Of a stretch of 64,000 nucleotides of DNA, positions 11,174 to 46,857 are shown in pieces (position 1 is the first letter of the stretch; the number at the start of each line of letters is the position of its first letter). Made by a program: the position numbers and the translations under genes. The DNA comes from Minisyncoccia bacterium. Its GTDB lineage: Bacteria; Patescibacteriota; Minisyncoccia; Phycocordibacterales; UBA9973. The notes under the pieces were generated by a model. It did no database searches and had not been told where the DNA came from. It was given only the letters and a program-made list of their open reading frames with translations. The stretch covers positions 132,691-196,690 of the forward strand of contig CBFHKH010000001.1 of NCBI GenBank assembly GCA_965656375.1, written 5' to 3'.

Positions 11174-12562
11174 ATGCGGCTAAGCAAAATACAATGTAAA
11201 ATGATGACGAAAAAAGATTGGACAATTGAAATCGGAAGTGGGGTAATAGATTGTTGTAGTAATAGGGGTGGAGACGTTGTAATTGCTGGTGACATTACTG
11301 GAAAATTTATCCTTTGTAATTGTGATGGGAAAATTCTATTAGAAAATAAAGTTGAGTTACCAATTTGGGGCGTGGATTTTTCTACTCAATTGGATGTAGT
11401 TGCAATCGGAACAGCTTCTAAATCTCCTTTAAAAGGAGAGCTTATCGTTTTTAAACAAAATGAAATAATCTTCAAGCATTCCTTATCAAGCCCTGTATGG
11501 GATGTAAAAATTATCGAAAACCTTCAATTAGTAGTTGCATCGACTTGGAAAGATGGATTAATTATTTATAGCCTGCTTTCCCAAACGTTTACAAGCTATT
11601 CTTTTGAAGAATCACTTTTTGGCTTGGCATATGAAGGGTCAAATTTATATATCGTTGCCTCCGAAAAGGGGGTTTATAAATTTGACTTAGATAGCCAAGA
11701 GCCGCCAATATTAATTTATGATGAAAGAACATGTTGCTATAATATTTACCATAACGAAATTGAGAGAGTACTCTATGTTGGATCAAATTCTAACACATTG
11801 TCAAAAATTGATTTAGTAAATACAAAAAATAGCAAGACATATATAACCCTTTCAAGACAAATAAGTGCTATAAGCCACTTTGGAGAGAATATTATAACAG
11901 GAGACCTTTCAGGAAATCTTTATGTCAATAAAATTAATGATTTTTTAGCACCAATCTATTACCAAAAACTTGAAGATGCGATTTGGAACCTACAGTTTAT
12001 AAGCGATAGTAAAAAATTACTTATCGCCAACGGAAATGGTTTTTTAGAGTGTTATTCGCTAAGTGAATCAGAATACAGCTATTGGAATTTTGAAAGCTTG
12101 CCATTTGATGAAAAACATTTAAAGGGTATCAAAATCTTTATTAATTACGCAAAAGAGGACAAGGATTCTGTTCTCAAACTTTATACCGCACTTCACACAA
12201 TTGGATGTACCCCTTGGATGGATGAGTTTAATATTTTACCAGGACAAAATTGGAAATATGAAACAACAAAAGCTATTGAAGAAGCTGACTTTATTTTGAT
12301 TTGCCTATCATCTTTTTCTGTGGCTAAAAAGGGGTATGTTCAAAAAGAGATAAAAATTGCACTTGATATCATCGATTTGTTACCACAAAACAAAGTATTT
12401 ATAATACCAATCAAATTAGATGAATGTAATGTTCCCGACAATTTAAAGGATTGGCAAGCTGTAGACCTATTTGCACCAAACGGGTTTCAAAAATTTGTTT
12501 ACTCAATATTTATTGACAGGATAAAATATCAGAGTATACTTAATAAGAGATTACTAAACTAA
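11174..12562 (+). CDS. WD40/beta-propeller repeat protein with a C-terminal TIR domain
   Basis: 462 aa. N-terminal repeated beta-strand blocks typical of WD40 or beta-propeller folds. The C-terminal IKIFINYAKEDKDSVL...WMDEFNILPGQNW...ADFILICLSSFSVAKKGYVQKEIKIA is a TIR_2 pattern. It starts 1 nt after the caspase stop. Confidence 0.6.
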   Translation: MRLSKIQCKMMTKKDWTIEIGSGVIDCCSNRGGDVVIAGDITGKFILCNCDGKILLENKVELPIWGVDFSTQLDVVAIGTASKSPLKGELIVFKQNEIIFKHSLSSPVWDVKIIENLQLVVASTWKDGLIIYSLLSQTFTSYSFEESLFGLAYEGSNLYIVASEKGVYKFDLDSQEPPILIYDERTCCYNIYHNEIERVLYVGSNSNTLSKIDLVNTKNSKTYITLSRQISAISHFGENIITGDLSGNLYVNKINDFLAPIYYQKLEDAIWNLQFISDSKKLLIANGNGFLECYSLSESEYSYWNFESLPFDEKHLKGIKIFINYAKEDKDSVLKLYTALHTIGCTPWMDEFNILPGQNWKYETTKAIEEADFILICLSSFSVAKKGYVQKEIKIALDIIDLLPQNKVFIIPIKLDECNVPDNLKDWQAVDLFAPNGFQKFVYSIFIDRIKYQSILNKRLLN

Positions 12563-23285: not shown

Positions 23286-24980
23286 ATGTCAGATGACTTT
23301 GTACAAATAAATAAACAGATAGCTGTTTACGCCAGAGTGTCTTCATCAAATCAGGAAAATGAAGGAACCATTGAAACCCAGCTATCAGCCATATATGAAT
23401 ATGCCAAAAGGGAAAAATATTTAATTGTTGAACAATACCTTGATAATGGCTGGAGTGGAGACAGCATAATACGGCCGGAACTTGACAGGCTCCGGGTAGA
23501 TGCCAAAAAGAAAATCTGGAATACAGTTTTAATGTATGACCCTGACAGGTTAGCAAGAAGATATTCTTACCAGGAATTGGTAATGGATGAACTAAGGGAA
23601 GCTGGTATAGAGGTTCTTTTTGTAACAACCCCTGCTCCGGCAAATGGGATTGAAAAGATATTATATGGAGTACAGGGATTATTTGCTGAATATGAAAGGG
23701 CAAAGATTACAGAGCGATTCCGCCTGGGTAAAGTACGGAAGGCAAATGAAGGACATATCATCGTAAGCGAAGCCCCCTATGGATATACGTTTATTCCTAA
23801 GCATGGCAAAAGAGGTGATGCTGATTTTAGACAAGGGTATTACCAAATCAATGAGCACGAGGCTGAAATAGTAAAGAAACTGTTTTACTGGGTAGCAAAT
23901 GATGGTTTAACAATAAGGGGGATAATCAGAAAACTTCAAAATTTAGGTATAACGCCAAGGAAAAGTAAAAGAGAGGTCTGGAGTACAAGTACACTAAGCA
24001 CGCTTTTGAGAAATAAGACATACATTGGAGAAGGGCATTATGGCGCTTCCTATGCAGTGGTGCCATTAAATCCAATTAAAAAAGACGGCTACCGGAAAAT
24101 AAAGAAAACCAGTAGACGAGGTAAACCAGAAGCTGAGTGGATAAAAATTCCGACTCCTAAAATTATAGACGAAGCCCTGTTTACCAGAGTGCAACAGAAA
24201 TTAAAAACAAACTTTGAAGCTGCTTCCAGAAATACGAAAAATGAATACCTGCTTTCTGCAAAAATTTGGTGTTCATGCGGTAGCAGGCTCACAGGGGAAG
24301 GTGTAAAGAACGGGAGAAATCTCTATTATCGTTGCACAAACAGGGTGCGTAATTTCCCTTTACTCCCAACCTGCACAAGAAAAGGGATTAATGCAAAAGT
24401 TATTGATGAATCTGTGTGGCAGCAGATCAAACACTTAATGAGTTCTCCGGAATTGCTGGAAGTGCAGGCAAAGCGCTGGTTCAATGAGCGGCAAAACAAA
24501 AAATTTCATTCTTCTATTGATAAAGGAACTATCCAAAAAGAGATTGATAAACTGAAAGAGCATGAACATCGTTATACCAAGGCTTATGGAGCAGGTCTGA
24601 TCTCGATTGAACAATTGAAAGAATACATACAGCCGGTGAGAGATAAAACCAAATCATTAATAGAACAGTTGGAAAAGAATCGGGTGGAAAGTGAACAAAA
24701 TGGAAAAACAATATTACCAGCAAGTGATCAGATTGAATTGTTTGTGCAAAAAGCTGCTAAGACTCTGCAAAACTTGAACTTCGGAGCAAAAAAGGCAATA
24801 ATTAAAAATGTAATCGAAAAGATTATTGCAACACCACAGGAATTATTAGTTTATGGATATATACCAATTAACAAATTAGAAGATGTCCCATTATGTTCTG
24901 TCCATTGGAATCGTAGGTCTGCCGAACGTCGGAAAGTCGACGCTTTTCAATGCGCTCACAAAGAAAGGCGTACCAGCTGA
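23286..24980 (+). CDS. Large serine recombinase (integrase); 3' end reads through into the ychF coding region
   Basis: 564 aa. IAVYARVSSSNQ with the catalytic Ser. Recombinase domain, Cys-rich zinc ribbon (CSCGSRL...CTNRVRNFPLLPTC) and coiled coil. The last roughly 33 codons overlap the ychF start in another frame. Confidence 0.85.
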   Translation: MSDDFVQINKQIAVYARVSSSNQENEGTIETQLSAIYEYAKREKYLIVEQYLDNGWSGDSIIRPELDRLRVDAKKKIWNTVLMYDPDRLARRYSYQELVMDELREAGIEVLFVTTPAPANGIEKILYGVQGLFAEYERAKITERFRLGKVRKANEGHIIVSEAPYGYTFIPKHGKRGDADFRQGYYQINEHEAEIVKKLFYWVANDGLTIRGIIRKLQNLGITPRKSKREVWSTSTLSTLLRNKTYIGEGHYGASYAVVPLNPIKKDGYRKIKKTSRRGKPEAEWIKIPTPKIIDEALFTRVQQKLKTNFEAASRNTKNEYLLSAKIWCSCGSRLTGEGVKNGRNLYYRCTNRVRNFPLLPTCTRKGINAKVIDESVWQQIKHLMSSPELLEVQAKRWFNERQNKKFHSSIDKGTIQKEIDKLKEHEHRYTKAYGAGLISIEQLKEYIQPVRDKTKSLIEQLEKNRVESEQNGKTILPASDQIELFVQKAAKTLQNLNFGAKKAIIKNVIEKIIATPQELLVYGYIPINKLEDVPLCSVHWNRRSAERRKVDAFQCAHKERRTS

Positions 24981-29570: not shown

Positions 29571-32500
29571 ATGAAAAATTACGATCATAGTAAAATTGAA
29601 AAAAAATGGCAGAAAGAGTGGGATAAGAAAAAGATCTATAAGACAGAATCTCCAAGTAAAAAAAAGAAATTCTACGTACTCGATATGTTTCCGTATCCGT
29701 CTGGTGCTGGACTCCATGTAGGTCATCCACGTGGGTATATTGGCTCTGATGTATACGCTCGTATGAAACGCATGCAAGGGTTCAATGTTCTTCATCCGAT
29801 GGGATATGACGCATTCGGTTTGCCTGCAGAGCAGTATGCAATTGAACACAAAATTCACCCTAAAAAGGCAGTCGACATAAATGTAGCCACATTCGAACGT
29901 CAGCTCTCTGTGATCGGCCTTTCGTATGATTGGTCTCGCAAAGTAAATACGACTGATCCCACGTACTACAAATGGACGCAGTGGATTTTTATCGAAATAT
30001 ATAATTCTTGGTATGACAATACAAAGAACAAAGCTCGACCGATCGGAGAGCTCGTAAAATTGTTTGAGCGTGATGGAAACAAAAAAATAGATGCGGTATG
30101 TGATGCGGCGTACTCAGATATATTCTCCGCGAATGAATGGAAAGGGTATAGTGATGTAGAGAAGCAAGACATACTCATGAAATATAGACTCGCATACGAA
30201 GGATATGCGCTTGTAAACTGGTGCCCAAAACTCGGCACTGTTCTTGCAAATGATGAAATCGTAGAAGACAAAGATGGCAACCAGGTCTCAGAACGTGGTG
30301 GATACCCGGTAGAGAAGCTTTCTATGCGTCAATGGTTTATGCGTATCACCGCATATGCTGATCGCTTGCTTACTGATCTCGAAGGGTTGAATTGGTCATC
30401 ACATATCAAAGAGATACAGAAAAATTGGATTGGAAAGAGCGAGGGAAGTGAGATCGAATTTAAAACCACTATCAATAGAACTGTGAAAATCTTTACCACA
30501 CGTGCGGATACACTTTTTGGTGTTACCTATGTAGTACTTTCACCAGAACATGCCAATATCGGAGAATTTATCGTGCAGTCACAAAACATGGCTGAAGCAT
30601 CAGCATATATCCGCGAAGCAAAAGAGCGAATGAAGAAAGAAGACATGCCTGCGCATGCAGGAAAGACTGGCATAGAACTCAAGGGTATCAAAGCTATCAA
30701 TCCAGCAAATGGGGAGGAAGTTCCTGTATGGATCGGGGACTATGTCCTTGCGAACTACGGTACTGGAGCTGTGATGGCTGTACCTGCACACGATGAGCGA
30801 GATTTTGAATTTGCGAAGAAATATAACTTGCCAATGAAGAGGGTGGTAGAACCAAAATTTGTATATTCGGAAGGTGAAGCTGCATATAGAGAAAAAGAAC
30901 CATATGTATACAGAGAGTGTATTTGTGCAATTGTGAGAAATCCAAAAGATGATACATATCTTTGTGTAAGCTGGAAAAAATTCAAGATGCATGGTCTAGT
31001 TACGGGAGGTATTGAAATTGGTGAGGATCCAATCGAAACTGCTAAGAGAGAGATCTATGAAGAAACAGGATATAAGAATGTAATTCTGACAAAAGATCCG
31101 AAATTTGGTCTTCAGACTTTTTTCTATCATCGTGTTAAAGAGATCAATAGACGGGCTCGATTTCAGTATCTTTTCTTTGATCTAGTTAATGAAGAACAAG
31201 ATCCATTAGCAAAGGAAGAATTTGATCTTCATGATGTTGTTTGGATTCCCAAAAATGAAATAAAAACTTTCTTTACTGTAGCCGAAGGCGAGTTTACATA
31301 CAATCTTATTGAGAATCCTGATTACATACACAAAGAAGATGGTATTTTATATTATTCTGGAAAATTTGATGGGATGGATTCTGATGAAGCCCGAAAGAAA
31401 ATCACGGAGGAGGTTGGCGGAAAAATAGTAACAAAATACAAAATGCGTGATGCGATATTTGCGCGCCAGCGATACTGGGGTGAGCCGATACCACTTAAGC
31501 ATGATAAGAAGACAGGCCTCACTTCTCCACTCAAGACAAAAGAATTACCACTCAAACTACCAAATGTAACCTCATACGAACCGACAGGTACCGGAGAGTC
31601 GCCACTTGCATCTGTGAATGCATGGGTAAAAAGTGGTTATGAGACTAATACAATGCCCGGCTGGGCAGGATCTTCATGGTACTTCCTGCGATATATGGAT
31701 CCAAAAAATTCTAAAGAATTCGCAAGCAAGAAATCGCTTGCGTACTGGAAAGATGTCGACATGTATATTGGTGGTCAGGAACATGCGACCGGGCATTTGC
31801 TCTACTCCCGCTTCTGGCACAAATTCCTCTATGATATGGGCTATGTTCCTACCAAGGAACCATTCAAGACGCTCAAGAACCAAGGTCTCATCATAGCTTC
31901 TGATGGACGCAAGATGAGTAAGCGATGGGGAAATGTGATCAACCCTGATGAAATAGTAAAAACATATGGAGCCGATACTCTCCGTGTATATGAAATGTTC
32001 ATAGGGCCATTTGATCAAACTGCACTTTGGAGCACTGAAAGTATAATTGGATCTCGGAGATTCATCGAGCGCGTCTATAGATTGCAAGAAAAGATAGTCA
32101 AGAAATATTCACATCCTTCGACTCTCGAGAAAGCACTTCACAAGACAATTAAAAAGGTCACAGAAGATATAGAAGGGATGAATTTTAATACAGCGATTTC
32201 TTCTATGATGGTATGCATCAATGAAGCAGACAAGGCAACAGAAATATCTCTTGATGACTTTAAAAAATTTTTACAAATCCTCGCACCATTTGCACCGCAT
32301 ATTGCAGAGGAGCTTTGGAATTCTTCAGGCGAGAAAAAATCTATACATACATCCGTATGGCCGAAGTGGGATAAGAAAAAAATCGTAGACGATACAGTGA
32401 CTATCGCTATTCAAGTCAACGGCAAATTGAGAGCAGAGCTCGTTATCCCTCTTGATATGGCAGAAGAAGATGTTCGAACTCTGGCACTTGGGGACAAGGC

Positions 32501-32579
32501 TATCGGAGGCTGGATAGAAGGCAAAGAAGTACGACGTGTGATTTATGTGAAAAATAGACTTATGAACATTGTTGTCTAG
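29571..32579 (+). CDS. leuS: Leucyl-tRNA synthetase with an inserted NUDIX hydrolase domain
   Basis: HIGH-type motif HVGH, CP1 editing motif TTRADTLFGV and KMSKRWGN. Between AHDERDFEFAKKYNLP and ARQRYWGEPIP sits an insert of about 170 aa with the Nudix box GGIEIGEDPIETAKREIYEETGY. Total length 1002 aa. Confidence 0.9.
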   Translation: MKNYDHSKIEKKWQKEWDKKKIYKTESPSKKKKFYVLDMFPYPSGAGLHVGHPRGYIGSDVYARMKRMQGFNVLHPMGYDAFGLPAEQYAIEHKIHPKKAVDINVATFERQLSVIGLSYDWSRKVNTTDPTYYKWTQWIFIEIYNSWYDNTKNKARPIGELVKLFERDGNKKIDAVCDAAYSDIFSANEWKGYSDVEKQDILMKYRLAYEGYALVNWCPKLGTVLANDEIVEDKDGNQVSERGGYPVEKLSMRQWFMRITAYADRLLTDLEGLNWSSHIKEIQKNWIGKSEGSEIEFKTTINRTVKIFTTRADTLFGVTYVVLSPEHANIGEFIVQSQNMAEASAYIREAKERMKKEDMPAHAGKTGIELKGIKAINPANGEEVPVWIGDYVLANYGTGAVMAVPAHDERDFEFAKKYNLPMKRVVEPKFVYSEGEAAYREKEPYVYRECICAIVRNPKDDTYLCVSWKKFKMHGLVTGGIEIGEDPIETAKREIYEETGYKNVILTKDPKFGLQTFFYHRVKEINRRARFQYLFFDLVNEEQDPLAKEEFDLHDVVWIPKNEIKTFFTVAEGEFTYNLIENPDYIHKEDGILYYSGKFDGMDSDEARKKITEEVGGKIVTKYKMRDAIFARQRYWGEPIPLKHDKKTGLTSPLKTKELPLKLPNVTSYEPTGTGESPLASVNAWVKSGYETNTMPGWAGSSWYFLRYMDPKNSKEFASKKSLAYWKDVDMYIGGQEHATGHLLYSRFWHKFLYDMGYVPTKEPFKTLKNQGLIIASDGRKMSKRWGNVINPDEIVKTYGADTLRVYEMFIGPFDQTALWSTESIIGSRRFIERVYRLQEKIVKKYSHPSTLEKALHKTIKKVTEDIEGMNFNTAISSMMVCINEADKATEISLDDFKKFLQILAPFAPHIAEELWNSSGEKKSIHTSVWPKWDKKKIVDDTVTIAIQVNGKLRAELVIPLDMAEEDVRTLALGDKAIGGWIEGKEVRRVIYVKNRLMNIVV

Positions 32580-40430: not shown

Positions 40431-40811
40431 ATGGCGCAATTCAATAAGAAAAATACATACAAATTTTGGCACTCTCCACTTGCACTTATCGTGCTTTTTT
40501 GTATTTTTGTACTGTTTGCCTATAATATGGTCGGGCTTATGAAGAAAGAGCGGGAAACCAGCAGAAATAAAGCTTCAGAGCTTAACAAGATCGAAGATCT
40601 TCGTGCTCGTGAAGCTCTACTCAATCGGGATATCGATAGACTTAATACAGACGAGGGCATAGAAGCGTCAATCAGAGATAAATTCCAAGTCGTAAAGCCT
40701 GGGGAGAAGGAAGTCTTAATAGTACAAGAAGAGAGTAAAACAGAGACACTCGAAAAAGAGTCTGACCATAGTTTCTGGGGATACATAAAACGTTTATTCA
40801 AGCGGAATTAG
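40431..40811 (+). CDS. Septum-formation initiator-like protein (FtsB/DivIC family)
   Basis: An N-terminal TM followed by a coiled coil (LNKIEDLRAREALLNRDIDRLNTDEG). Confidence 0.45.
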   Translation: MAQFNKKNTYKFWHSPLALIVLFCIFVLFAYNMVGLMKKERETSRNKASELNKIEDLRAREALLNRDIDRLNTDEGIEASIRDKFQVVKPGEKEVLIVQEESKTETLEKESDHSFWGYIKRLFKRN

Positions 40812-40872
40812 TTTAGTGGTAGAACTGGTGCTTCCCAAGCATCGGGCAGGGGTTCGATTCTCCTATTCCGCA
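40802..40872 (+). tRNA. tRNA-Gly (anticodon CCC), no encoded CCA
   Basis: GCGGAAT acceptor pairs with ATTCCGC. Anticodon loop TTCCCAA. T-loop TTCGATT. It overlaps the last codons of the upstream ORF. Confidence 0.8.
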
Positions 40873-40915
40873 CAGATTTGCATATTAGGCAAAATATCCT
40901 TCCTTAATGGAATAG

Positions 40916-41422
40916 TTATTCTATTGTATATGTAAACACTTTAACTGGAATTCCTTTATCCTGGGCTTTTGTTATTGTATCTTGCGTTCCTTCTGTCTGG
41001 TTAATATGGAAAGCGATAAGTTCATCTGAGTTATCAATAATCGTTGTTATTCTTGCGAAATAAGCTTCTTTATTTAAAATGATGTCTTTTCCTTCTATAA
41101 GTGAATTTGGGTTTCTATTTTTTAAATCTTCTAGTTGGTTAATAAGCCTTGTTGCTTGTTCAAAAGTAATAACACCTTCGTTTGCACGATTGAGATAGTG
41201 AGTTCGATATACATCTAGAGTAGACGGAATATATATTTTAATTTTACTAGCATCAGGGTTATGCTTGAGGGCCTCATCTAGAGCGATTGAATCAACACCT
41301 AATGCACCCCCTGAAACAATCCCGTTTCCATCAATAAAAATATTCTTTAGAGCAACTCTAATATCTTTATCTACTTCTAAGTTAGTTTTCCGCCAAGCAC
41401 CTGCAATTGCGATCCATTTCAT
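40916..41422 (-). CDS. SLOG/DprA-like Rossmann-fold protein (putative nucleotide-binding)
   Basis: 168 aa. GIVSGGALGVDSIALDEAL resembles the DprA/SLOG glycine-rich nucleotide-binding motif. Confidence 0.35.
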   Translation of the reverse strand: MKWIAIAGAWRKTNLEVDKDIRVALKNIFIDGNGIVSGGALGVDSIALDEALKHNPDASKIKIYIPSTLDVYRTHYLNRANEGVITFEQATRLINQLEDLKNRNPNSLIEGKDIILNKEAYFARITTIIDNSDELIAFHINQTEGTQDTITKAQDKGIPVKVFTYTIE

Positions 41423-41494
41423 TCTTCAATTATATCAGAAAATGTTATTTACCCTCCCTTCCAAAGAATACCAATTCGGTGATAGAATGGACTA

Positions 41495-41974
41495 ATGAAT
41501 AATTATGCTTTCATCGATAGTCAAAATGTCTATCTCTCAATAAAATCATTAGGATGGAGTATTCACTGGAAGCGATTTCGAGTCTATTTAAAGGAACATT
41601 ATAGAGTGACTAAAGCTTTTTTATTTCTTGGATATGTAGAAGGGAACAATGCTATGTATTCTGAACTTCAAGAAGCTGGGTTCATTTGTATCTTTAAACC
41701 GGTGCTGACATATAAGGATGGAACAGTAAAAGGCAATGTTGATGCAGAGCTTGTACTCCATACGATGGTTCAGTATGCTAATTTTGAAAAAGCTGTCATT
41801 ATTACCGGTGATGGAGACTTTTATTGCTTAGTTCAATATCTGTTAGAGAACAATAAACTACAGACAGTATTAGTTCCAAACAAGAATAAATACTCTGCTT
41901 TGCTCAAGCGCTTTGCGAAGAAGCATATTGCATTTATGAATGATTTGGAGATGAAGATTGGTCAGGCTAAATAA
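41495..41974 (+). CDS. NYN-domain (PIN-like) ribonuclease family protein
   Basis: AFIDSQNVYLS...ITGDGDF is the NYN/LabA pattern. Confidence 0.65.
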   Translation: MNNYAFIDSQNVYLSIKSLGWSIHWKRFRVYLKEHYRVTKAFLFLGYVEGNNAMYSELQEAGFICIFKPVLTYKDGTVKGNVDAELVLHTMVQYANFEKAVIITGDGDFYCLVQYLLENNKLQTVLVPNKNKYSALLKRFAKKHIAFMNDLEMKIGQAK

Positions 41975-42233
41975 AAAGGACCCCTGCAGGACGAACCTGC
42001 AAGGGGACTTTTCGTGGTGATATAATCATTATAGCTGATCTGGATTACGTGTCAAGGAGCGCTGTATAAGATGTTATTTGCAGGTCATTTATGCTGCTAT
42101 CTTCAATATGTTTCTCATTATAAGTTCTAACTTCGTTGATTAGGCTGTACATATGTCAAGTATTGCAATATATATGGGTATGATATAATGAGGGTCAATT
42201 ATTAAATATCACCGCGTTTGCGGTTTACACAAT

Positions 42234-42473
42234 ATGAGTACAGTCACTATTTATAGCACTCCATCATGTCATTTTTGTCACATGGCAAAAGAGTTTTTTA
42301 AAGAAAAGAATGTCGAATTCGTTGATTTTGACGTAGCAGGGGATCAGGAAAAGCGCAAAGAAATGATCGCAAAAAGCGGTCAGATGGGTGTACCAGTCAT
42401 CGCCATTGGAAATACTATTGTTGTTGGTTTTAATAAGCCAAAGATTGTAGAGCTCCTCGGTATTACTGAGTAG
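42234..42473 (+). CDS. Glutaredoxin-like protein (NrdH/Grx family)
   Basis: 79 aa. CHFC active site in a thioredoxin-fold context (IYSTPSCHFCHMAKEFF). Confidence 0.7.
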   Translation: MSTVTIYSTPSCHFCHMAKEFFKEKNVEFVDFDVAGDQEKRKEMIAKSGQMGVPVIAIGNTIVVGFNKPKIVELLGITE

Positions 42474-42500
42474 CATTTACTACCATTTTAACGTATGATA

Positions 42501-42524
42501 AAAACACCCGTACGGGTGTTTTTA
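42501..42524 (+). terminator. Rho-independent terminator after the glutaredoxin gene
   Basis: aaaacacccgta/cgggtgtttt is a perfect hairpin followed by T-run. Confidence 0.55.
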
Positions 42525-42540
42525 TGTAAACTCAATATTT

Positions 42541-42612
42541 GTCCTTGTAGTTCAACGGATAGAACAGTCCCGTCCTAAGGGATAGATGTAGGTTCAATTC
42601 CTGCCAAGGACA
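42541..42612 (+). tRNA. tRNA-Arg (anticodon CCU), no encoded CCA
   Basis: GTCCTTG pairs with CAAGGAC in the acceptor stem. Anticodon loop GTCCTAA. T-arm GTAGG-TTCAATT-CCTGC. Confidence 0.8.
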
Positions 42613-42682
42613 CAGCTATGTACTCGCGGTCGGAGTGAAGGCACACTTTTATTTTTGACTGAAATATGCTAAAGTTTGGTTC

Positions 42683-42976
42683 ATGGATGAAGTAACCAAA
42701 CAGCTTCTGAAAGAAACATTAGAAGTCTCAAAAGCCAATAATGTAATGCTTGTAAAGCTTGCTCGATCGCAAAAGCGAGCAAATATCTATCGATTGGTAT
42801 ATTGGGGAGTCATTGTTTTCTTTTCATTTGGAATATACTATCTCATCCAACCGTTTATGAACAATTTAATGAGTCTTTATACAGGAGGAGCATCGGATGG
42901 TAGTAGTTTCACTGATTTGATGAAGAACTTCAGCAACAAAGAACAGTTAAATAATTTGATAGATACAATCAAATAA
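42683..42976 (+). CDS. Small membrane protein of unknown function
   Basis: 97 aa with one TM. Confidence 0.3.
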   Translation: MDEVTKQLLKETLEVSKANNVMLVKLARSQKRANIYRLVYWGVIVFFSFGIYYLIQPFMNNLMSLYTGGASDGSSFTDLMKNFSNKEQLNNLIDTIK

Positions 42977-42982
42977 TCCTAT

Positions 42983-42997
42983 GCCGAGATAGCTCAG
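42983..42997 (+). repeat. 15-nt direct repeat identical to the 5' end of tRNA-Phe (GCCGAGATAGCTCAG). It forms the left boundary of a GIY-YIG insertion unit and is followed by two GC-rich hairpins.
   Basis: It matches 43306-43320 exactly. Downstream are the hairpins ccccgac-N9-gtcgggg and agccgac-N6-gtcggct. Confidence 0.6.
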
Positions 42998-43048
42998 CCC
43001 CGACGTGAGTACAGTCGGGGAGCCGACAGAATCGTCGGCTTTGGCGCC

Positions 43049-43315
43049 ATGAAACCAGTTGTTTATATTTTAAAATCAAATTTGGGCAAGTATTATATAG
43101 GTAGTACTTATAATTTAGAAAGAAGGCTTGCTCAGCATGCTGAGGGACATACCCACTCAACAAAAAGAATGGGGTATATGGAACTAGTTTTTTCTCAAGA
43201 ATACAAGAGCCTGAAAGATGCTAGAAATGTAGAGTTTCATATAAAAAAACTCAAGAGAAAAGACTTTGTTGAAAAAATCGTGAAAGAAGGTTATATTAGG
43301 ATTACGCCGAGATAG
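43049..43315 (+). CDS. GIY-YIG nuclease family protein (YhbQ/UPF0213-like)
   Basis: KPVVYILKSNLGKYYIGSTYNLERRLAQH has GIY-YIG and the R...H catalytic core. The last codons and stop are supplied by the tRNA-Phe 5' sequence. Confidence 0.75.
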   Translation: MKPVVYILKSNLGKYYIGSTYNLERRLAQHAEGHTHSTKRMGYMELVFSQEYKSLKDARNVEFHIKKLKRKDFVEKIVKEGYIRITPR

Positions 43316-43378
43316 CTCAGTTGGTAGAGCGCTCCCCTGAAGAGGGATAGGTCACCAGTTCGACTCTGGTTCTCGGCA
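43306..43378 (+). tRNA. tRNA-Phe (anticodon GAA), no encoded CCA
   Basis: GCCGAGA pairs with TCTCGGC in the acceptor stem. D-loop AGCTCAGTTGGTAGAGC. Anticodon loop CTGAAGA. T-loop TTCGACT. Confidence 0.8.
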
Positions 43379-43383
43379 CAATA

Positions 43384-43940: not shown

Positions 43941-44663
43941 TTAGCGTTCAACAGGAATACTGATAGTAGCATTTCCCATACGCTTTAACTTTTCAAAAAT
44001 AAGTATACTAATAATCGCGACGACCCATAACAATCCGAATACGCTCAAGAAGTTTTCACCGCTTCCTTTCATTATAAAAAAATTAAACACGCTGTGCAAT
44101 ACTATCGCACAGAGGAGTCCACACAGCATATATATACCTCTATATTGACGGATATAAAAAGAAAGACCAAGCGCGCTTCCGATGAGTCCGCTCGCAATCG
44201 CGTGAAGAAGCGTTGATCCCAGGAATCGAAGGTTGCCGGTAAGGAGGCCAACAACGGTGCCGTCGACAGCGAGTGGGCGAAGGAGGTAGAGGATATTTTC
44301 GAATGCTGCAAAGCCGAGCGCTACAGCGATGAAATACATCGGATAATCTATCGGTTCATCAACAACTGTTGTTCCGCTTATGATAATGAGAACACCAAGG
44401 AGTTTCAAAATCTCCTCGATAGTTGCCCATGCTACTATCTGAGTCGTATTATCAGGTAGGTAATTGAGAGAATACTTTTCCATCCATATCGCGATAAGTA
44501 CTATGATTCCGCCAAGAATGAATGAAAGTACGATGAGTCCACGCGGCTCTTTGTGGCCTTCGTCTTCTTCACGAAGCCAAAACCATAACCAAAATACTGC
44601 TGGCAATGCACCGCCGAGAACTGCAAATAACAATGTCTTTGGATCTTTAAGCAGTTCGATCAT
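43941..44663 (-). CDS. PrsW-family intramembrane metalloprotease-like protein
   Basis: TIEEILKLLG is the EExxK motif, AAFENILY is the FxxxE motif and LLHAIASG is the HxxxS motif. Multi-TM. Confidence 0.5.
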   Translation of the reverse strand: MIELLKDPKTLLFAVLGGALPAVFWLWFWLREEDEGHKEPRGLIVLSFILGGIIVLIAIWMEKYSLNYLPDNTTQIVAWATIEEILKLLGVLIIISGTTVVDEPIDYPMYFIAVALGFAAFENILYLLRPLAVDGTVVGLLTGNLRFLGSTLLHAIASGLIGSALGLSFYIRQYRGIYMLCGLLCAIVLHSVFNFFIMKGSGENFLSVFGLLWVVAIISILIFEKLKRMGNATISIPVER

Positions 44664-46857
44664 TGGAATGCCATTTTGTTACCATAAGTAAATTCTTGTC
44701 TTCGACTGGCCTGTCTGCGCAGGTGGACAAGAGTGACCAGATCTCTTCAGTTACGAACGGCATGAATGGATGGAGTGTGATCACTATCTTTGTGAGCGTT
44801 CCGAGTAAGAATTGTGCACGAGAATTTCTATCTTCATTGTCTGCTCCTTGGAGAATTGGTTTACTCTCTTCGATGATTACATCAGCAAATCGTGCCCAGG
44901 TGTACTGGTAAATCTTGTCTCCTGCGAGATAGAATTTATACTCTTCCATTTCTTTTGTAATCGTTTTTAGAATCTCATCTCTTTCATGGATAAGTTCCAT
45001 ATCTTTATTCGTGTATTTTTCGAACTGTGGATCGTAGGTAAGATTTTCTGTGTATGAGAGTACAAAGCGAGTAATATTCCAGAGTTTATTCGCATAGTTT
45101 TTGTATGCTTTTATTTTATCCTCACTCATTTTACTATCATTACCGGGTCCAGTTCCTATAATGAGCGACATACGCACTGCGTCGGCTCCATATTTTGCTA
45201 TGACATCAAGTGGATCGATGATATTACCAAGTGATTTTGACATCTTTCGTCCTTGTGCGTCACGGACAAGGCCGTGGAGATATACAGTCTTGAATGGGAT
45301 TTCACCCAAAATATATTGAGACATGAGAATCATACGTGCCACCCAGAAGAACAGGATGTCGTATCCAGTTTCGAGGATTGTTGTCGGATGATAGGTTTCT
45401 AGGTCTTTTGTTTTCTCTGGCCATCCAAGTGTTGAGAATGTCCACAGTCCCGATGAGAACCAAGTATCGAGTGTGTCTTCATCTTGAACCCATCCTTCTT
45501 CATCTGGCTCTTCAACTCCGCAGTATACTTCGGTGCCCTTATACCACACTGGAATTCGATGCCCGTACCAGATCTGGCGAGAGATACACCAGTCACGCAG
45601 ATTATCTACCCAGTTGAAATATACTCTCTCGAAGTGATCAGGAAGTATATCAATATCTTTATTGCGAATTGGTTCAAGCATTAACTCCTTGAGCGTTTTG
45701 TTATTTCGATCAGGAATCGGTTTGTTCACATTGATGAACCACTGATTCATAATTTGTGGTTCAATAACTGCTTCAGTACGTTCTGCTGTGGCTACGTTGT
45801 GAGTATAGTCTTCAATTTTCTCTACCAAGCCTTTTGATTCGAGTTTTTCGATGATCTTTGCTCTTGCGTCTTTGATCTTCATACCTCCAAATTCGCCAGC
45901 GATAGGGAGGAGCTTGCCGTACTTATCAATGATCTGCTCTTTGTCGAGATTGTGACGCTGTGCGATTTCAAAATCGACAGTACTATGCCATGGAGTGATA
46001 GTCATGACACCTGTACCGAATTCCATATCAATACTTTCATCTTTGATGATCGTTGCTTCTATTGGTCCGTTGATCCACTCGACGGTTATCTTGTCTCCAT
46101 GAGTGTATGTGCTGTATCTGGCATCATCAGGATGCATGACCACGTATTTATCTCCAAATTTTGTTTCTGGTCGTGCAGTACCGATGGTGAACGGTCCATA
46201 CTTTAGATAGTAGAACTTTGTCTTTTCTTCTTTGTATACCATCTCGTCGTCAGAGATTACTGTCTGGCCTTTTGGATCCCAGTTTACGATGCGGTGGCCA
46301 CGATAGATGAGTCCGTCATCGTACATTTTCTTAAATGCTGTGCGCACTGCAAAGTTACGTTTCTCGTCGAGCGTGAACGCTTCTCGTGACCAGTCGATAG
46401 ACGCACCCATTTTCTTCACTTGGGAGACGATTGTGTCATGGCTGTCTTGTGCAAATGTCTCTACTCGCTTGAGAAATTCTTCGCGACCAAGGTCACTTTT
46501 TCTCTTACCTTCTTCTTTCTCGATCAGCTTCTCAACTTTTGATTGCGTCGCGATTGCTGCGTGATCTGTTCCAGGAAGCCAGAGAGTTCGCTTTCCTTGC
46601 ATACGAGCGAAGCGGACCATGATATCTTCGATAACGAGCATAGCTGCATGGCCGATATGGAGTGTTCCCGTGACGTTTGGGGGAGGTAATACTATAGAGA
46701 ATGGTTCACCATCTGCTTTCGTTACTCCTTTCTCTATACAGATATCAGGATTAAAAAAACCACTCTCTTCCCAGAGTTTGTATATGCGGTCTTCAGTTTC
46801 ACCCGGATTATATGGAGAGAGGAGTTTTGGGTTTATATCAGGCATATCTTCTTTCAT
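44647..46857 (-). CDS. valS: Valyl-tRNA synthetase (short form lacking the C-terminal coiled coil)
   Basis: PPPNVTGTLHIGHA HIGH motif, KMSKSLGN, and editing-domain motifs. 736 aa. Confidence 0.9.
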   Translation of the reverse strand: MKEDMPDINPKLLSPYNPGETEDRIYKLWEESGFFNPDICIEKGVTKADGEPFSIVLPPPNVTGTLHIGHAAMLVIEDIMVRFARMQGKRTLWLPGTDHAAIATQSKVEKLIEKEEGKRKSDLGREEFLKRVETFAQDSHDTIVSQVKKMGASIDWSREAFTLDEKRNFAVRTAFKKMYDDGLIYRGHRIVNWDPKGQTVISDDEMVYKEEKTKFYYLKYGPFTIGTARPETKFGDKYVVMHPDDARYSTYTHGDKITVEWINGPIEATIIKDESIDMEFGTGVMTITPWHSTVDFEIAQRHNLDKEQIIDKYGKLLPIAGEFGGMKIKDARAKIIEKLESKGLVEKIEDYTHNVATAERTEAVIEPQIMNQWFINVNKPIPDRNNKTLKELMLEPIRNKDIDILPDHFERVYFNWVDNLRDWCISRQIWYGHRIPVWYKGTEVYCGVEEPDEEGWVQDEDTLDTWFSSGLWTFSTLGWPEKTKDLETYHPTTILETGYDILFFWVARMILMSQYILGEIPFKTVYLHGLVRDAQGRKMSKSLGNIIDPLDVIAKYGADAVRMSLIIGTGPGNDSKMSEDKIKAYKNYANKLWNITRFVLSYTENLTYDPQFEKYTNKDMELIHERDEILKTITKEMEEYKFYLAGDKIYQYTWARFADVIIEESKPILQGADNEDRNSRAQFLLGTLTKIVITLHPFMPFVTEEIWSLLSTCADRPVEDKNLLMVTKWHSNDRTA

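What the first reader, a model, noticed from the sequence alone, without database searches (positions are those of the whole stretch)
30845..31360. NUDIX hydrolase domain inserted inside leucyl-tRNA synthetase
Between the conserved AHDxRDFEFA-KY-LP segment and the ARQRYWGEPIP segment, LeuRS carries an extra roughly 170 aa. In E. coli only about 25 aa separate these two segments. The insert contains a complete Nudix box G-x5-E-x7-REUxEExGU (GGIEIGEDPIETAKREIYEETGY). All LeuRS catalytic and editing motifs are intact, so this looks like a functional in-frame domain acquisition and not a pseudogene. A Nudix pyrophosphatase embedded in an aaRS could hydrolyse aminoacyl-adenylates or ApnA, or mediate tRNA or RNA 5'-end chemistry. 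I do not recall this fusion being described.
Basis: seen in the sequence. Interest (0 to 1): 0.65.

Follow-up and report, generated by a model that had tools for sequence, protein, structure and literature searches.

The report
Nudix hydrolase nested inside leucyl-tRNA synthetase
This candidate-phyla-radiation bacterium's leucyl-tRNA synthetase carries an intact Nudix hydrolase domain in-frame in a surface loop of its proofreading domain, one case of a widespread, laterally shuffled and apparently undescribed nesting of small hydrolase domains inside LeuRS.

Summary
The 1002-aa ORF at 29571-32579 is a complete bacterial LeuRS (TIGR00396, 912 bits). About 161 aa (aa 428-588) replace a 10-aa loop of the CP1 editing domain. 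The insert scores as NUDIX (54.5 bits against a cut-off of 21.1), has a canonical Nudix box, and models confidently (pLDDT 94.9).

It is not an artefact. The identical protein occurs in two independent assemblies. The same insertion is found in 43 species-level Patescibacteria genomes and in about 85 of the 120 closest LeuRS.

The insert is under purifying selection (omega 0.03-0.13), and its three catalytic Glu are kept in 292 of 304 domain instances.

It behaves as an exchangeable cassette:
- The closest, fully syntenic LeuRS lacks it.
- Insert identity and body identity are uncorrelated.
- GC3 is 0.22 in the insert against 0.40 in the rest of the gene.
- One species pair shows a recombination tract over the cassette.

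The same NUDIX clade sits at three or more LeuRS sites, in up to three copies per protein. Ham1, HAD, serine-hydrolase, ASCH and DUF559 domains occupy the same loops.

The substrate is unknown. I infer an active accessory pyrophosphohydrolase tethered to CP1. I found no literature describing it.

The parts
29571..32579 (+). leuS, a complete bacterial-type leucyl-tRNA synthetase of 1002 aa that hosts the insert
   Evidence: ORF found. TIGR00396 scores 912.6 bits. The AF2 model has pLDDT 87.2. Its best Foldseek matches are T. thermophilus and E. coli LeuRS, with target-normalised TM of about 0.8.
29715..29726 (+). HIGH signature (HVGH, aa 49-52)
   Evidence: Located. H49, V50, G51 and H52 are invariant in 75 sequences.
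30420..30851 (+). CP1 editing domain, the part upstream of the insert (aa 284-427)
   Evidence: Pfam PF13603 at aa 284-431, profile positions 1-145 of 185. Aligns to T. thermophilus residues 222-363.
30495..30512 (+). Thr-rich editing motif TTRADT (aa 309-314)
   Evidence: Located. Nearly invariant.
30786..30803 (+). AHDERD editing motif (aa 406-411). From memory, D408 corresponds to the editing Asp, E. coli D345.
   Evidence: Located. H407, D408, R410 and D411 are invariant.
30852..31334 (+). Inserted cassette (aa 428-588, 161 aa). It consists of an N-terminal beta-hairpin linker, the NUDIX fold, and a C-terminal helical linker. It replaces a loop of about 10 aa.
   Evidence: Boundaries come from P0167 and T. 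thermophilus LeuRS. GC is 0.340 and GC3 0.224, against 0.420 and 0.396 in the rest of the gene. The AF2 model has pLDDT 94.9.
30912..31271 (+). NUDIX domain core (aa 448-567)
   Evidence: Pfam PF00293, 49.9 bits in the whole protein and 54.5 bits for the insert alone, cut-off 21.1. All top Foldseek PDB matches are Nudix hydrolases.
31005..31073 (+). Nudix box G-x5-E-x7-R-E-U-x-E-E-x-G-U (GGIEIGEDPIETAKREIYEETGY, aa 479-501)
   Evidence: Located. Box conservation over 304 domain instances is.
31335..31445 (+). CP1 editing domain, the part downstream of the insert (DGILYYSGKFDG..., aa 589-625)
   Evidence: Aligns to T. thermophilus residues 374 onward and to P0167.
31461..31493 (+). ARQRYWGEPIP catalytic-core motif (aa 631-641)
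   Evidence: Located. Invariant.
31911..31925 (+). KMSKS-type loop (KMSKR, aa 781-785)
   Evidence: Located. M782, S783, K784 and R785 are invariant.

Best explanation
The gene encodes a fully functional LeuRS. A loop of its CP1 editing domain (equivalent to T. thermophilus 364-373) has been replaced by a self-folding, catalytically competent NUDIX pyrophosphohydrolase cassette.

Shown:
- The domain is NUDIX and its metal-binding glutamates are intact.
- It is under purifying selection as strong as that on the LeuRS body.
- The LeuRS synthetic and editing motifs are untouched.
- The cassette is dispensable for LeuRS, because syntenic close relatives lack it.
- It is exchanged laterally between LeuRS genes.
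- The same NUDIX clade is found almost only in LeuRS, at three or more loop sites and in one to three copies. Otherwise it occurs as small stand-alone proteins, one family of which still carries a remnant of CP1.

Inferred:
- LeuRS charges and proofreads tRNA-Leu as usual.
- The tethered NUDIX globule hydrolyses a nucleoside-polyphosphate-type compound. Candidates are a dinucleoside polyphosphate such as Ap4A/Ap3A made from the enzyme-bound adenylate, or an aberrant NTP-like or adenylate-like nucleotide.
- Hydrolysis happens close to the place where the adenylate and the tRNA 3' end are handled. The tether to CP1 therefore matters and is more than a convenient way of being expressed.

The substrate is the weakest step.
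For: Identity and integrity:
- Pfam NUDIX above cut-off.
- AF2 pLDDT 94.9, and all top PDB fold matches are Nudix hydrolases. The best is 2azw. The others are NTP pyrophosphatases, Ap4A hydrolases, NudI, MutT1 and RppH.
- The three catalytic Glu are kept in 292 of 304 domain instances, and the canonical box in 244 of 304. This includes every copy in the multi-copy proteins.

Selection:
- Omega of the insert is 0.03-0.13 in four pairs with unsaturated dS. The body gives 0.055-0.133.

Host enzyme intact:
- TIGR00396 at 912 bits.
- HIGH, KMSKS, TTRxDT and AHDxRD are invariant or nearly so, with or without the insert.

Real and widespread:
- Two independent assemblies.
- 43 GTDB species.
- 379 cluster representatives at E<=1e-3.

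Cassette behaviour:
- P0167 is 78% identical in the body, lies in identical synteny, and has no insert.
- Body and insert identities have Spearman -0.14 over 3828 pairs.
- P0156 has catalytic core identity of 0.88 and 0.93 but insert identity of 0.35. L003 has body identity of about 0.42-0.54 but insert identity of 0.64.
- Between L003 and L004 the NUDIX tract is 94-99% identical in nucleotides across its core, with third positions at 0.93-1.0. The adjacent flanks are 0.82-0.86.
- GC3 is 0.224 in the insert against 0.396 in the rest of the gene.

Link to LeuRS and CP1:
- Every long host among the 150 best representatives is LeuRS.
- Sites A, B and C are all in LeuRS.
- The ValRS of the same window has no insert.
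- A stand-alone family of 276-291 aa keeps a reduced CP1 fragment fused to the NUDIX.

Nucleotide context:
- That stand-alone gene sits in an operon with a CYTH/CyaB-like triphosphate enzyme, and in one locus with CMP kinase.
Against: - No activity or substrate is shown.
- Sequence and fold place the domain in no characterised NUDIX subfamily. All NCBIfam equivalogs are far below cut-off. The best PDB profile hit has E 1e-6.
- The tools do not return coordinates, so I could not measure the distance between the NUDIX active site and the LeuRS synthetic or editing sites.
- Presence is patchy among close relatives, so the module is not needed for LeuRS function.
- Unrelated hydrolases (Ham1-like, HAD, serine hydrolase, ASCH, DUF559) occupy the same loops. 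This fits 'LeuRS loops are simply permissive' as well as it fits a specific coupling.
- Truly free NUDIX genes of about 160-180 aa from the same clade exist with unrelated neighbours.
Confidence: 0.45

Rival explanations
1. Hitch-hiking house-cleaning enzyme. The NUDIX is an ordinary nucleotide-pool sanitising hydrolase that has lodged in a permissive loop of a large, monomeric, constitutively expressed protein. LeuRS supplies only expression and a scaffold, with no functional cross-talk.
For: - The other domains found in the same loops are classic house-cleaning or repair families: Ham1/ITPase-like, HAD, serine hydrolase and ASCH.
- Free-standing relatives at 50-63% identity exist in unrelated contexts.
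- Presence and absence are patchy among near-identical LeuRS.
- Editing and synthetic motifs are the same with and without the insert.
Against: - This NUDIX clade was found in no host protein other than LeuRS. It sits at three or more independent sites there, while ValRS in the same window is insert-free.
- Up to three diverged copies, all with intact catalytic residues, occur in one polypeptide. That is hard to explain for a bulk housekeeping activity.
- The stand-alone family retains a CP1 fragment.
Confidence: 0.25
2. Target-tethered detoxification or repair in a molecular arms race. The nested hydrolases protect LeuRS or tRNA-Leu against toxins. These could be nucleotide antibiotics that mimic leucyl-adenylate, like TM84 of agrocin 84. 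They could also be enzymes that block the tRNA 3' end, for example by pyrophosphorylation. NUDIX, HAD and esterase domains would cleave the inhibitor or the blocking group at the target itself.
For: - The evolutionary pattern is that of conflict genes. There is rapid cassette replacement, lateral transfer, presence/absence polymorphism, multiplication of copies, and several alternative hydrolase chemistries at the same place.
- All sites flank or lie in CP1, which handles the CCA end.
- Natural LeuRS-directed adenylate mimics exist, as do enzymatic immunity mechanisms against aaRS-directed adenylate mimics: GNAT MccE, peptidase MccF, HIT hydrolase MccH and possibly HAD (PMC8323819).
- NCBIfam curates an IleRS with an embedded GNAT domain, NF040702.
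Against: - There is no direct evidence.
- PADLOC gives nothing meaningful (14.5 bits).
- No toxin or biosynthetic genes lie next to leuS in the window or in the syntenic loci.
- NUDIX enzymes cleave phosphoanhydrides, not the P-N bond of TM84-type mimics.
- dN/dS shows plain purifying selection, not diversifying selection.
Confidence: 0.15
3. Non-catalytic module. The NUDIX fold has been recruited as a structural, RNA-binding or protein-binding appendage of CP1, for example as an extra tRNA contact or for partner docking. Hydrolysis is irrelevant.
For: - A minority of copies have substitutions in the box: E to Q at the x5-E position in 29 instances, and 44 instances with a residue other than R at the RE position.
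- Many lineage-specific aaRS appendages are non-catalytic (general knowledge of aaRS appended domains).
Against: - The three metal-binding Glu are retained in 96% of 304 instances across sequences that are otherwise only about 34% identical.
- The invariant GG, E, EE and G of the box are exactly the catalytic signature.
Confidence: 0.08
4. Selfish in-frame insertion. The cassette spreads because it is mobile, in an intein-like or homing manner, and is tolerated rather than useful.
For: - Lateral spread and a recombination tract.
- The compositional anomaly.
- A DUF559/REase-like endonuclease domain sits in-frame at site B of another LeuRS, L009.
Against: - No Hint/intein or homing-endonuclease domain lies in or next to the window insert.
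- The termini (EPKF... / ...HKE|DG) lack the intein splice residues (my recollection of the intein motifs).
- There are no flanking direct or inverted repeats beyond chance.
- There is strong purifying selection on the catalytic residues.
Confidence: 0.05
5. Assembly chimera, frameshift artefact or decaying pseudogene.
For: Some database relatives are short fragments (P0001-P0006).
Against: - Those fragments come from an indel-ridden contig in which many genes are split.
- The window ORF is uninterrupted.
- It is identical in two assemblies and conserved in more than 200 full-length homologues.
Confidence: 0.01

Closest known systems
Canonical bacterial LeuRS with CP1 editing domain (TIGR00396; T. 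thermophilus 1h3n/2bte, E. coli 4aq7)
   Same: - Full domain order.
- HIGH, KMSKS, the Thr-rich motif and the AHDxRD editing motif.
- About 30-33% identity and target-normalised TM of about 0.8.
   Different: - 161 aa of NUDIX replace the 10-aa CP1 loop (Tt 364-373).
- No solved LeuRS contains such a domain.
- The window enzyme also appears to lack the leucine-specific domain: only ASDGR lies between QGLII and KMSK. I read this from the sequence and did not align it formally.
Small free-standing Nudix pyrophosphohydrolases (E. faecalis 2azw; Ap4A hydrolases 3i7u, 4ijx and 5cfi; NudI 6dt3; RppH 4s2x; MutT1)
   Same: - The alpha/beta/alpha Nudix fold. Query-normalised TM is 0.70 for 2azw and 0.55-0.62 for the rest, with probability 1.0.
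- A complete Nudix box.
   Different: - Only 14-24% sequence identity.
- Below every NCBIfam equivalog cut-off.
- The clade has its own conserved residues. In insert numbering these are R25, K100, N103, R104, H131 and W135.
- It is embedded in another enzyme.
IleRS with embedded N-acetyltransferase domain (NCBIfam NF040702, ileS_w_GNAT)
   Same: A class Ia synthetase that carries an extra small-molecule-modifying enzyme domain within the polypeptide.
   Different: - A different synthetase and a different domain chemistry (acetyl transfer against hydrolysis).
- The window protein matches that model only through the shared class I core, at 83 bits against a cut-off of 1999.
Appended or trans-acting aaRS accessory domains in general (LysX = LysRS-MprF, NF002821; AlaX/YbaK-type editing factors; eukaryotic WHEP/GST/EMAPII additions)
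   Same: Accretion of an accessory domain onto an aaRS without loss of the core function.
   Different: - Those are terminal fusions or separate proteins. Here the domain is nested inside a loop of CP1.
- It is laterally exchanged, variable in site and copy number, and of a family (NUDIX) that I could not find described with an aaRS.
Inteins and other in-frame insertions in essential genes
   Same: In-frame insertion in an essential housekeeping gene, with patchy distribution and lateral spread.
   Different: - No Hint domain or splice-junction residues.
- The insertion is in a variable surface loop, not in a conserved active-site motif.
- The insert keeps an enzymatic signature under purifying selection, and is predicted to remain in the mature protein.

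Membership tests
NUDIX superfamily (Pfam PF00293) | Profile score above the Pfam gathering threshold | tested here: met
   49.9 bits in the whole protein and 54.5 bits for the insert alone, against a cut-off of 21.1.
NUDIX superfamily (Pfam PF00293) | Nudix box G-x5-E-x7-R-E-U-x-E-E-x-G-U on a loop-helix-loop | tested here: met
   G479-x5-E485-x7-R493-E494-I-Y-E497-E498-T-G500-Y. The helix at insert residues 64-76 (window aa 487-499) covers the RE..EE part of the box in the model. The box is canonical in 244 of 304 clade members.
NUDIX superfamily (Pfam PF00293) | Alpha/beta/alpha sandwich Nudix fold | tested here: met
   AF2 pLDDT 94.9. All 50 listed Foldseek PDB matches are Nudix proteins, with probability 1.0.
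NUDIX superfamily (Pfam PF00293) | Divalent-cation-dependent hydrolysis of a nucleoside diphosphate linked to X | not testable with these tools
   This needs an enzyme assay. Only conservation of the catalytic Glu and purifying selection speak for it.
Bacterial leucine--tRNA ligase (TIGR00396 equivalog) | Whole-protein score above the curated cut-off | tested here: met
   912.6 bits against 548.4.
Bacterial leucine--tRNA ligase (TIGR00396 equivalog) | Class I signatures HIGH and KMSKS, and the CP1 editing motifs (Thr-rich TTRxDT, GTG...AHDxRD) | tested here: met
   HVGH at aa 49, KMSKR at aa 781, TTRADT at aa 309 and AHDERD at aa 406. They are invariant or nearly invariant across 75 relatives.
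Bacterial leucine--tRNA ligase (TIGR00396 equivalog) | Leucylation of tRNA-Leu and post-transfer editing activity | not testable with these tools
   Inferred from intact motifs only.
RppH / RNA pyrophosphohydrolase (NF001938 and relatives) | Equivalog score above cut-off | tested here: not met
   26.7 bits against a cut-off of 116.
NudI, NudE, NudB, MutT, NudC and YtkD equivalogs (NCBIfam) | Equivalog score above cut-off | tested here: not met
   All score 12-24 bits against cut-offs of 95-169. The PDB profile search gives at best E 1e-6, over the box region only.
Ap4A hydrolase subfamily of Nudix | A subfamily-specific aromatic residue about 16-18 residues after the box (recalled from Dunn et al. 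1999, not verified here) and ApnA activity | tested here: inconclusive
   F517/Y518 lie 16-17 residues after the box end, and an aromatic residue is common in that column. Ap4A hydrolases are among the fold neighbours but are not the best. The motif rule comes from memory and is a lead only.
Intein | A Hint domain, an N-terminal Cys/Ser splice residue, and a C-terminal His-Asn followed by Cys/Ser/Thr | tested here: not met
   Pfam gives no Hint or intein hit. The junctions are VV|EPKF and HKE|DGIL.
Known anti-phage defence system proteins (PADLOC-DB 2.0) | A significant match to a defence-system model | tested here: not met
   Only 14.5 bits (E 0.005) to the candidate PDC-S07 for the insert, and nothing for the whole LeuRS.

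The most novel reading that the evidence does not exclude
In Patescibacteria, LeuRS serves as a platform that carries interchangeable, laterally traded hydrolase cassettes on its editing domain. These are NUDIX in one to three copies, Ham1-like, HAD, serine hydrolase and ASCH. They would form a target-tethered defence or repair layer that cleaves LeuRS-directed nucleotide toxins or unblocks damaged tRNA-Leu 3' ends at the point of attack. That would be a new principle: immunity domains embedded in the antibiotic or toxin target itself.
Probability: 0.15. Interest if true: 0.9.

Novelty: new variant of a known kind. Interest (0 to 1): 0.7.

Why it matters
Aminoacyl-tRNA synthetases are among the most conserved enzymes known. 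Lineage-specific catalytic domains nested inside them are rare in bacteria and have usually pointed to new biology.

Here an intact Nudix hydrolase sits in the proofreading domain of LeuRS. It is part of a much larger pattern in the candidate phyla radiation:
- at least three to four insertion sites;
- up to three Nudix copies per protein;
- at least five other enzyme families in the same loops;
- lateral exchange of the cassettes independently of the host gene.

If the hydrolase acts on adenylate-derived nucleotides, on LeuRS inhibitors or on tRNA ends, it would be a new kind of quality control or self-protection wired directly into translation.

Even if it is only a hitch-hiker, it is a clear natural example of domain insertion and cassette swapping in an essential gene. 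It also gives ready-made permissive sites for engineering LeuRS.

There is a practical consequence too. NCBI's pipeline labels several of these proteins only as 'class I tRNA ligase family protein', so the LeuRS of such genomes may be under-annotated.

Tried and rejected
- Artefact or pseudogene: rejected.
- Intein or mobile-element signature: no Hint or endonuclease domain in the window insert. There are no flanking repeats beyond short chance matches.
- Assignment to a characterised Nudix subfamily failed by three routes. NCBIfam equivalogs are all far below cut-off. The PDB profile search reaches E 1e-6 at best. The Foldseek PDB neighbours are generic, and the best is an uncharacterised structural-genomics protein, 2azw.
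- Defence-system membership: PADLOC is negative.
- Alternative genetic code as the cause of the roughly 280-aa 'CP1 fragment + NUDIX' proteins: rejected. The ORFs barely change when TGA is read through, by 0-20 aa, and no LeuRS motifs are gained.
- A second copy of this NUDIX elsewhere in the window: none.
- Literature: six searches combining LeuRS, aaRS, Nudix, CPR, Patescibacteria and CP1 insertion returned nothing relevant.

Technical dead ends:
- The afdb50 fold library was not available.
- Model coordinates are not returned, so the distance between the NUDIX site and the LeuRS sites could not be measured.
Full report
**Observation**

The window has one long ORF at 29571-32579 (+) encoding 1002 aa. 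It is a bacterial leucyl-tRNA synthetase: TIGR00396 scores 912.6 bits against a cut-off of 548. Pfam finds the class I core, the anticodon-binding domain and the LeuRS editing domain PF13603. The editing-domain match breaks off at aa 431, at profile position 145 of 185. A NUDIX domain (PF00293) follows at aa 448-567 with 49.9 bits against a cut-off of 21.1. Scanned alone, the insert gives 54.5 bits and no other family.

The Nudix box GGIEIGEDPIETAKREIYEETGY is at aa 479-501 and fits G-x5-E-x7-REUxEExGU exactly.

**Exact anatomy**

Two alignments agree on the boundaries. Against T. thermophilus LeuRS, window aa 427 equals Tt 363 and window aa 584 equals Tt 374. The nearest insert-less relative, P0167, reads KEVI-IEQVNSRHD-DGILH where the window reads KRVV-[161 aa]-DGILY. 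So aa 428-588 (nt 30852-31334) replace a loop of about 10 aa inside CP1. This lies about 20 residues after the AHDERD motif.

The spacing is 55 aa in P0167 and about 67 aa in T. thermophilus (my count). The conclusion that a whole extra domain is present stands.

HVGH, KMSKR, TTRADT and AHDERD are all present. They are invariant or nearly invariant in a 75-sequence alignment that mixes insert-bearing and insert-less enzymes.

An AlphaFold2 model of the insert has pLDDT 94.9. The full-length model has pLDDT 87.2 and pTM 0.77, with the NUDIX blocks at 87-95. Short beta-strands enter and leave the domain (E426-431, E591-593). The full model matches T. thermophilus and E. coli LeuRS with target-normalised TM of about 0.8. 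No solved LeuRS has such a domain.

**Not an artefact**

The identical 1002-aa protein is on record from an NCBI genome (contig of 840 kb) and from an independent Logan assembly of run ERR15116721. The short fragments first recovered (P0001-P0006) come from a contig in which many genes are broken by indels.

**Distribution**

A scan of one genome per GTDB species found 45 loci. In 43 of them the match lies inside a LeuRS ORF between AHDxRD and RQRYWG. Complete ORFs are 947-1325 aa, and a few are cut by contig ends. Nearly all are Patescibacteria MAGs: Nomurabacteria, Paceibacteria, Zambryskiibacteria, Liptonbacteria, Berkelbacteria and others.

A full HMMER pass over 1.84 billion cluster representatives gave 379 hits at E<=1e-3 and 166 at E<=1e-10. 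Every long host among the best 150 is LeuRS. Of the 120 LeuRS most similar to the window protein, about 85 carry PF00293 and about 35 (822-904 aa) do not.

**Selection and catalytic residues**

Across 304 domain instances of this clade, the three glutamates of REUxEE are all present in 292. The full canonical box is present in 244. The first G of the box is invariant, and the second G, the EE pair and the final G are nearly so (295-302 of 304).

In four pairs with unsaturated dS, omega of the insert is 0.03-0.13. This is the same as or lower than the LeuRS body, at 0.055-0.133. This is what an active enzyme looks like, not a spacer.

**Cassette behaviour**

- P0167 is the closest LeuRS body (78% identical). 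It sits in exactly the same gene order (sigma-70, pterin-4a dehydratase, Sua5, two small genes, leuS, TPR protein, MurJ) and has no insert.
- Among 88 insert-bearing sequences, insert identity does not track body identity. Spearman is -0.14 over 3828 pairs. Mean body identity is 66% and mean insert identity 34%.
- Segment by segment, P0156 is 0.88 and 0.93 identical to the window in the two halves of the catalytic core but only 0.35 in the insert. L003 and L004 are 0.39-0.57 in the body but 0.63-0.64 in the insert.
- At the DNA level, L003 and L004 come from different studies. They are 94-99% identical across the core of the NUDIX tract, with third positions at 0.93-1.0. The adjacent flanks are 82-86% identical, with third positions at 0.57-0.70. 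Consistently, dS is 0.175 in the insert against 0.748 in the body.
- In the window, the insert has GC 0.340 and GC3 0.224. The rest of leuS has 0.420 and 0.396.
- There are no flanking repeats.

I read this as repeated gain, loss and replacement of the cassette by recombination between LeuRS genes. I do not read it as transposition.

**More sites, more copies, more domains**

Mapping every NUDIX instance onto window coordinates gives three sites:
- Site A: the window's site, aa 428/589.
- Site B: the start of CP1, between SEGxEIxF and VFTTRADT, at about aa 272-306.
- Site C: about aa 686-691, between RQRYWGEPIP and TMPGWAGSSWY.

P0007 and P0008 have three NUDIX domains, two in tandem at B plus one at A. 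P0011 has two at B, and L023 has one at B and one at A. All these copies keep the catalytic glutamates. The two tandem positions at site B form separate, conserved subgroups, so the array is old.

The same loops also hold other domains above their Pfam cut-offs:
- Ham1/ITPase-like: P0162, P0203, and by Pfam listing also P0255.
- HAD: P0193, L023.
- Alpha/beta serine hydrolase: P0211, L005, L044, L024.
- ASCH: P0251.
- A DUF559/REase-like endonuclease domain: L009, 113 bits.
- A second, different NUDIX directly after the first: P0202, P0204.
- An unassigned domain of about 110 aa just after RQRYWGEPIPL: P0184, P0208.

**Relatives outside LeuRS**

True stand-alone genes of about 160-180 aa exist with unrelated neighbours (L033; P0005). 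They are 50-63% identical to inserted copies and are interleaved with them by nearest neighbour.

A second stand-alone family of 276-291 aa consists of a reduced CP1 fragment plus the NUDIX. The AHD Asp is replaced and there is no TTRxDT motif. These are real ORFs that barely change when TGA is read through (0-20 aa longer, with no LeuRS motifs gained). They lie in contigs of 24-31% GC, including one from a human gut metagenome.

In 6 of 14 loci this gene follows a variant radical-SAM protein (NF045502, 178 bits), an unknown protein of about 340 aa, and a CYTH/CyaB-like protein. In L062 a CMP kinase follows it. This neighbourhood points to nucleoside-triphosphate chemistry. The retained CP1 remnant suggests that the NUDIX and the adjoining part of CP1 form a unit.

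**What the domain is like**

By sequence it belongs to no characterised subfamily. RppH, NudI, NudB, NudE, MutT and NudC equivalogs score 12-27 bits against cut-offs of 95-169. A clade profile reaches only E 1e-6 against PDB sequences, over the box region.

By fold, the best match is 2azw, an uncharacterised E. faecalis MutT/Nudix protein (query-normalised TM 0.70). It is followed by a putative CTP pyrophosphohydrolase, Ap4A hydrolases, NudI, MutT1 and RppH.

The clade-specific conserved residues, in insert numbering, are R25, K100, N103, R104, H131 and W135. They may line the substrate pocket, which is an inference.

**Mechanism**

I commit to the following. LeuRS works normally. The NUDIX globule, tethered by two strands to CP1, is an active pyrophosphohydrolase for a nucleoside-polyphosphate-type compound. 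The tether to LeuRS is functionally meaningful.

The first two steps rest on the evidence above. The third rests on three observations:
- The clade is confined to LeuRS at several independent sites.
- ValRS in the same window has no insert.
- The stand-alone family keeps its CP1 remnant.

The substrate is not shown. Candidates are Ap4A/Ap3A made from the adenylate, or aberrant NTP-like or adenylate-like nucleotides.

The main rival is a pure hitch-hiker model. It is favoured by the house-cleaning flavour of the co-inserted families and by the patchy distribution. A conflict or repair model fits the evolutionary pattern. It has precedents in enzymatic immunity to aaRS-directed adenylate mimics (PMC8323819) and in the curated IleRS-with-GNAT family. 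It has no direct support, and PADLOC is negative. A non-catalytic role, a selfish element and an artefact are unlikely, for the reasons given under the rival explanations.

**Novelty**

LeuRS and NUDIX are both well known, and precomputed Pfam tables already list both domains on these proteins. Six full-text searches found no description of a NUDIX, or of any of the other hydrolases, inside LeuRS, and no account of aaRS insertions in the candidate phyla radiation. The library lacks most subscription journals, so a prior description cannot be excluded. I rate this as a new variant of a known kind, with a broader pattern that deserves a dedicated study.

Noticed in passing
window 60542-62464 (+): The LysRS of the same genome (NF001756 at 521 bits, TIGR00499 at 460 bits) carries an extra C-terminal DUF2000 domain (PF09391, aa 515-637, 69.9 bits). 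It is a second aaRS in this window with an appended accessory domain.
   Followed up: partly
window 44647-46857 (-): ValRS is only 735-736 aa. It matches the valS models up to about position 700 of 860, so the C-terminal part is missing. It has no inserted domain, which shows that the nesting is not general to class Ia synthetases in this genome.
   Followed up: partly
window 31860-31925 (LeuRS aa ~765-785): Only 'ASDGR' lies between QGLII and KMSKR. The leucine-specific domain therefore seems to be absent, as in the minimal Mycoplasma mobile LeuRS (PMC3643597, listed). I read this from the sequence and did not align it formally.
   Followed up: no
window 146-24980: A probable mobile or defence island. 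It holds an OLD-family AAA_15+TOPRIM nuclease (146-2275, minus strand), two large serine recombinases (4199-5938 and 23286-24980), and a WD40+TIR protein (11174-12562).
   Followed up: no
window 40802-43379: Three tRNA genes: Gly-CCC, Arg-CCT and Phe-GAA. No other Rfam family reaches its gathering score in the window.
   Followed up: yes
L009 4471-7764 (Paceibacterota MAG JANOFO010000009.1): This LeuRS has a DUF559/REase-like endonuclease domain (PF04480, 113 bits, aa 269-373) in-frame at site B, as well as the NUDIX at site A. An endonuclease nested in an essential gene suggests a homing-type origin for some of the inserts.
   Followed up: no
L023 5269-9243; L005 2532-6050; L044 4-3390; L024 4864-8316: LeuRS proteins of 1129-1325 aa that combine NUDIX with other nested enzymes. 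L023 has NUDIX at site B, then NUDIX followed by HAD at site A. L005 and L044 have a serine hydrolase at site B plus NUDIX at site A. L024 has NUDIX at site A and a serine hydrolase after RQRYWG.
   Followed up: partly
P0162, P0203 (Pfam-scanned); P0163, P0166 (homologous insert, not scanned); P0255 (Pfam listing only); P0193; P0211; P0251; P0259; P0184/P0208: Site B of close LeuRS relatives holds Ham1/ITPase-like, HAD, alpha/beta-hydrolase or ASCH domains, or an unassigned 125-aa domain. An unassigned domain of about 110 aa sits right after RQRYWGEPIPL.
   Followed up: partly
L003 4900-7773 versus L004 204-3131: The NUDIX tract is 94-99% identical in nucleotides across its core, with third positions at 0.93-1.0. 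The adjacent flanks are 82-86% identical. This indicates a recent recombination or transfer tract coinciding with the cassette.
   Followed up: yes
L053, L054, L055, L058, L062, L063 (e.g. L062 3152-7517): A stand-alone protein of 276-291 aa made of a reduced CP1 fragment plus NUDIX, in very low-GC (0.24-0.31) contigs, one from a human gut metagenome. It lies in a conserved operon of variant radical-SAM (NF045502), an unknown protein of about 340 aa, a CYTH/CyaB-like protein and the CP1-fragment-NUDIX gene, followed by CMP kinase in L062. The function is unknown.
   Followed up: partly
P0033 (379 aa): A protein made of at least two tandem NUDIX repeats of this clade, with the start of a third and no LeuRS part. 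It may be a fragment at a contig end.
   Followed up: no
proteins P0168, P0192, P0195, P0197, P0214, P0245, P0256: NCBI annotation names these insert-bearing LeuRS only as 'class I tRNA ligase family protein'. Some insert-less relatives (P0228, P0242, P0273) get the same name, so the insert may not be the cause.
   Followed up: no
L041 (JABHLR010000008.1), L003 and L023 (TPA assemblies): The records are titled 'archaeon' or 'uncultured Gammaproteobacteria', but they encode a bacterial, Patescibacteria-like LeuRS with the NUDIX insert. The taxonomic labels of these MAGs are probably wrong.
   Followed up: no
L001 (ena:ERZ25039480 contig_141877): On this contig leuS, a transpeptidase gene and a Mur ligase gene are all split into many short ORFs. 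It is an indel-rich assembly, which explains the short 'CP1+NUDIX' fragments in the protein database.
   Followed up: yes
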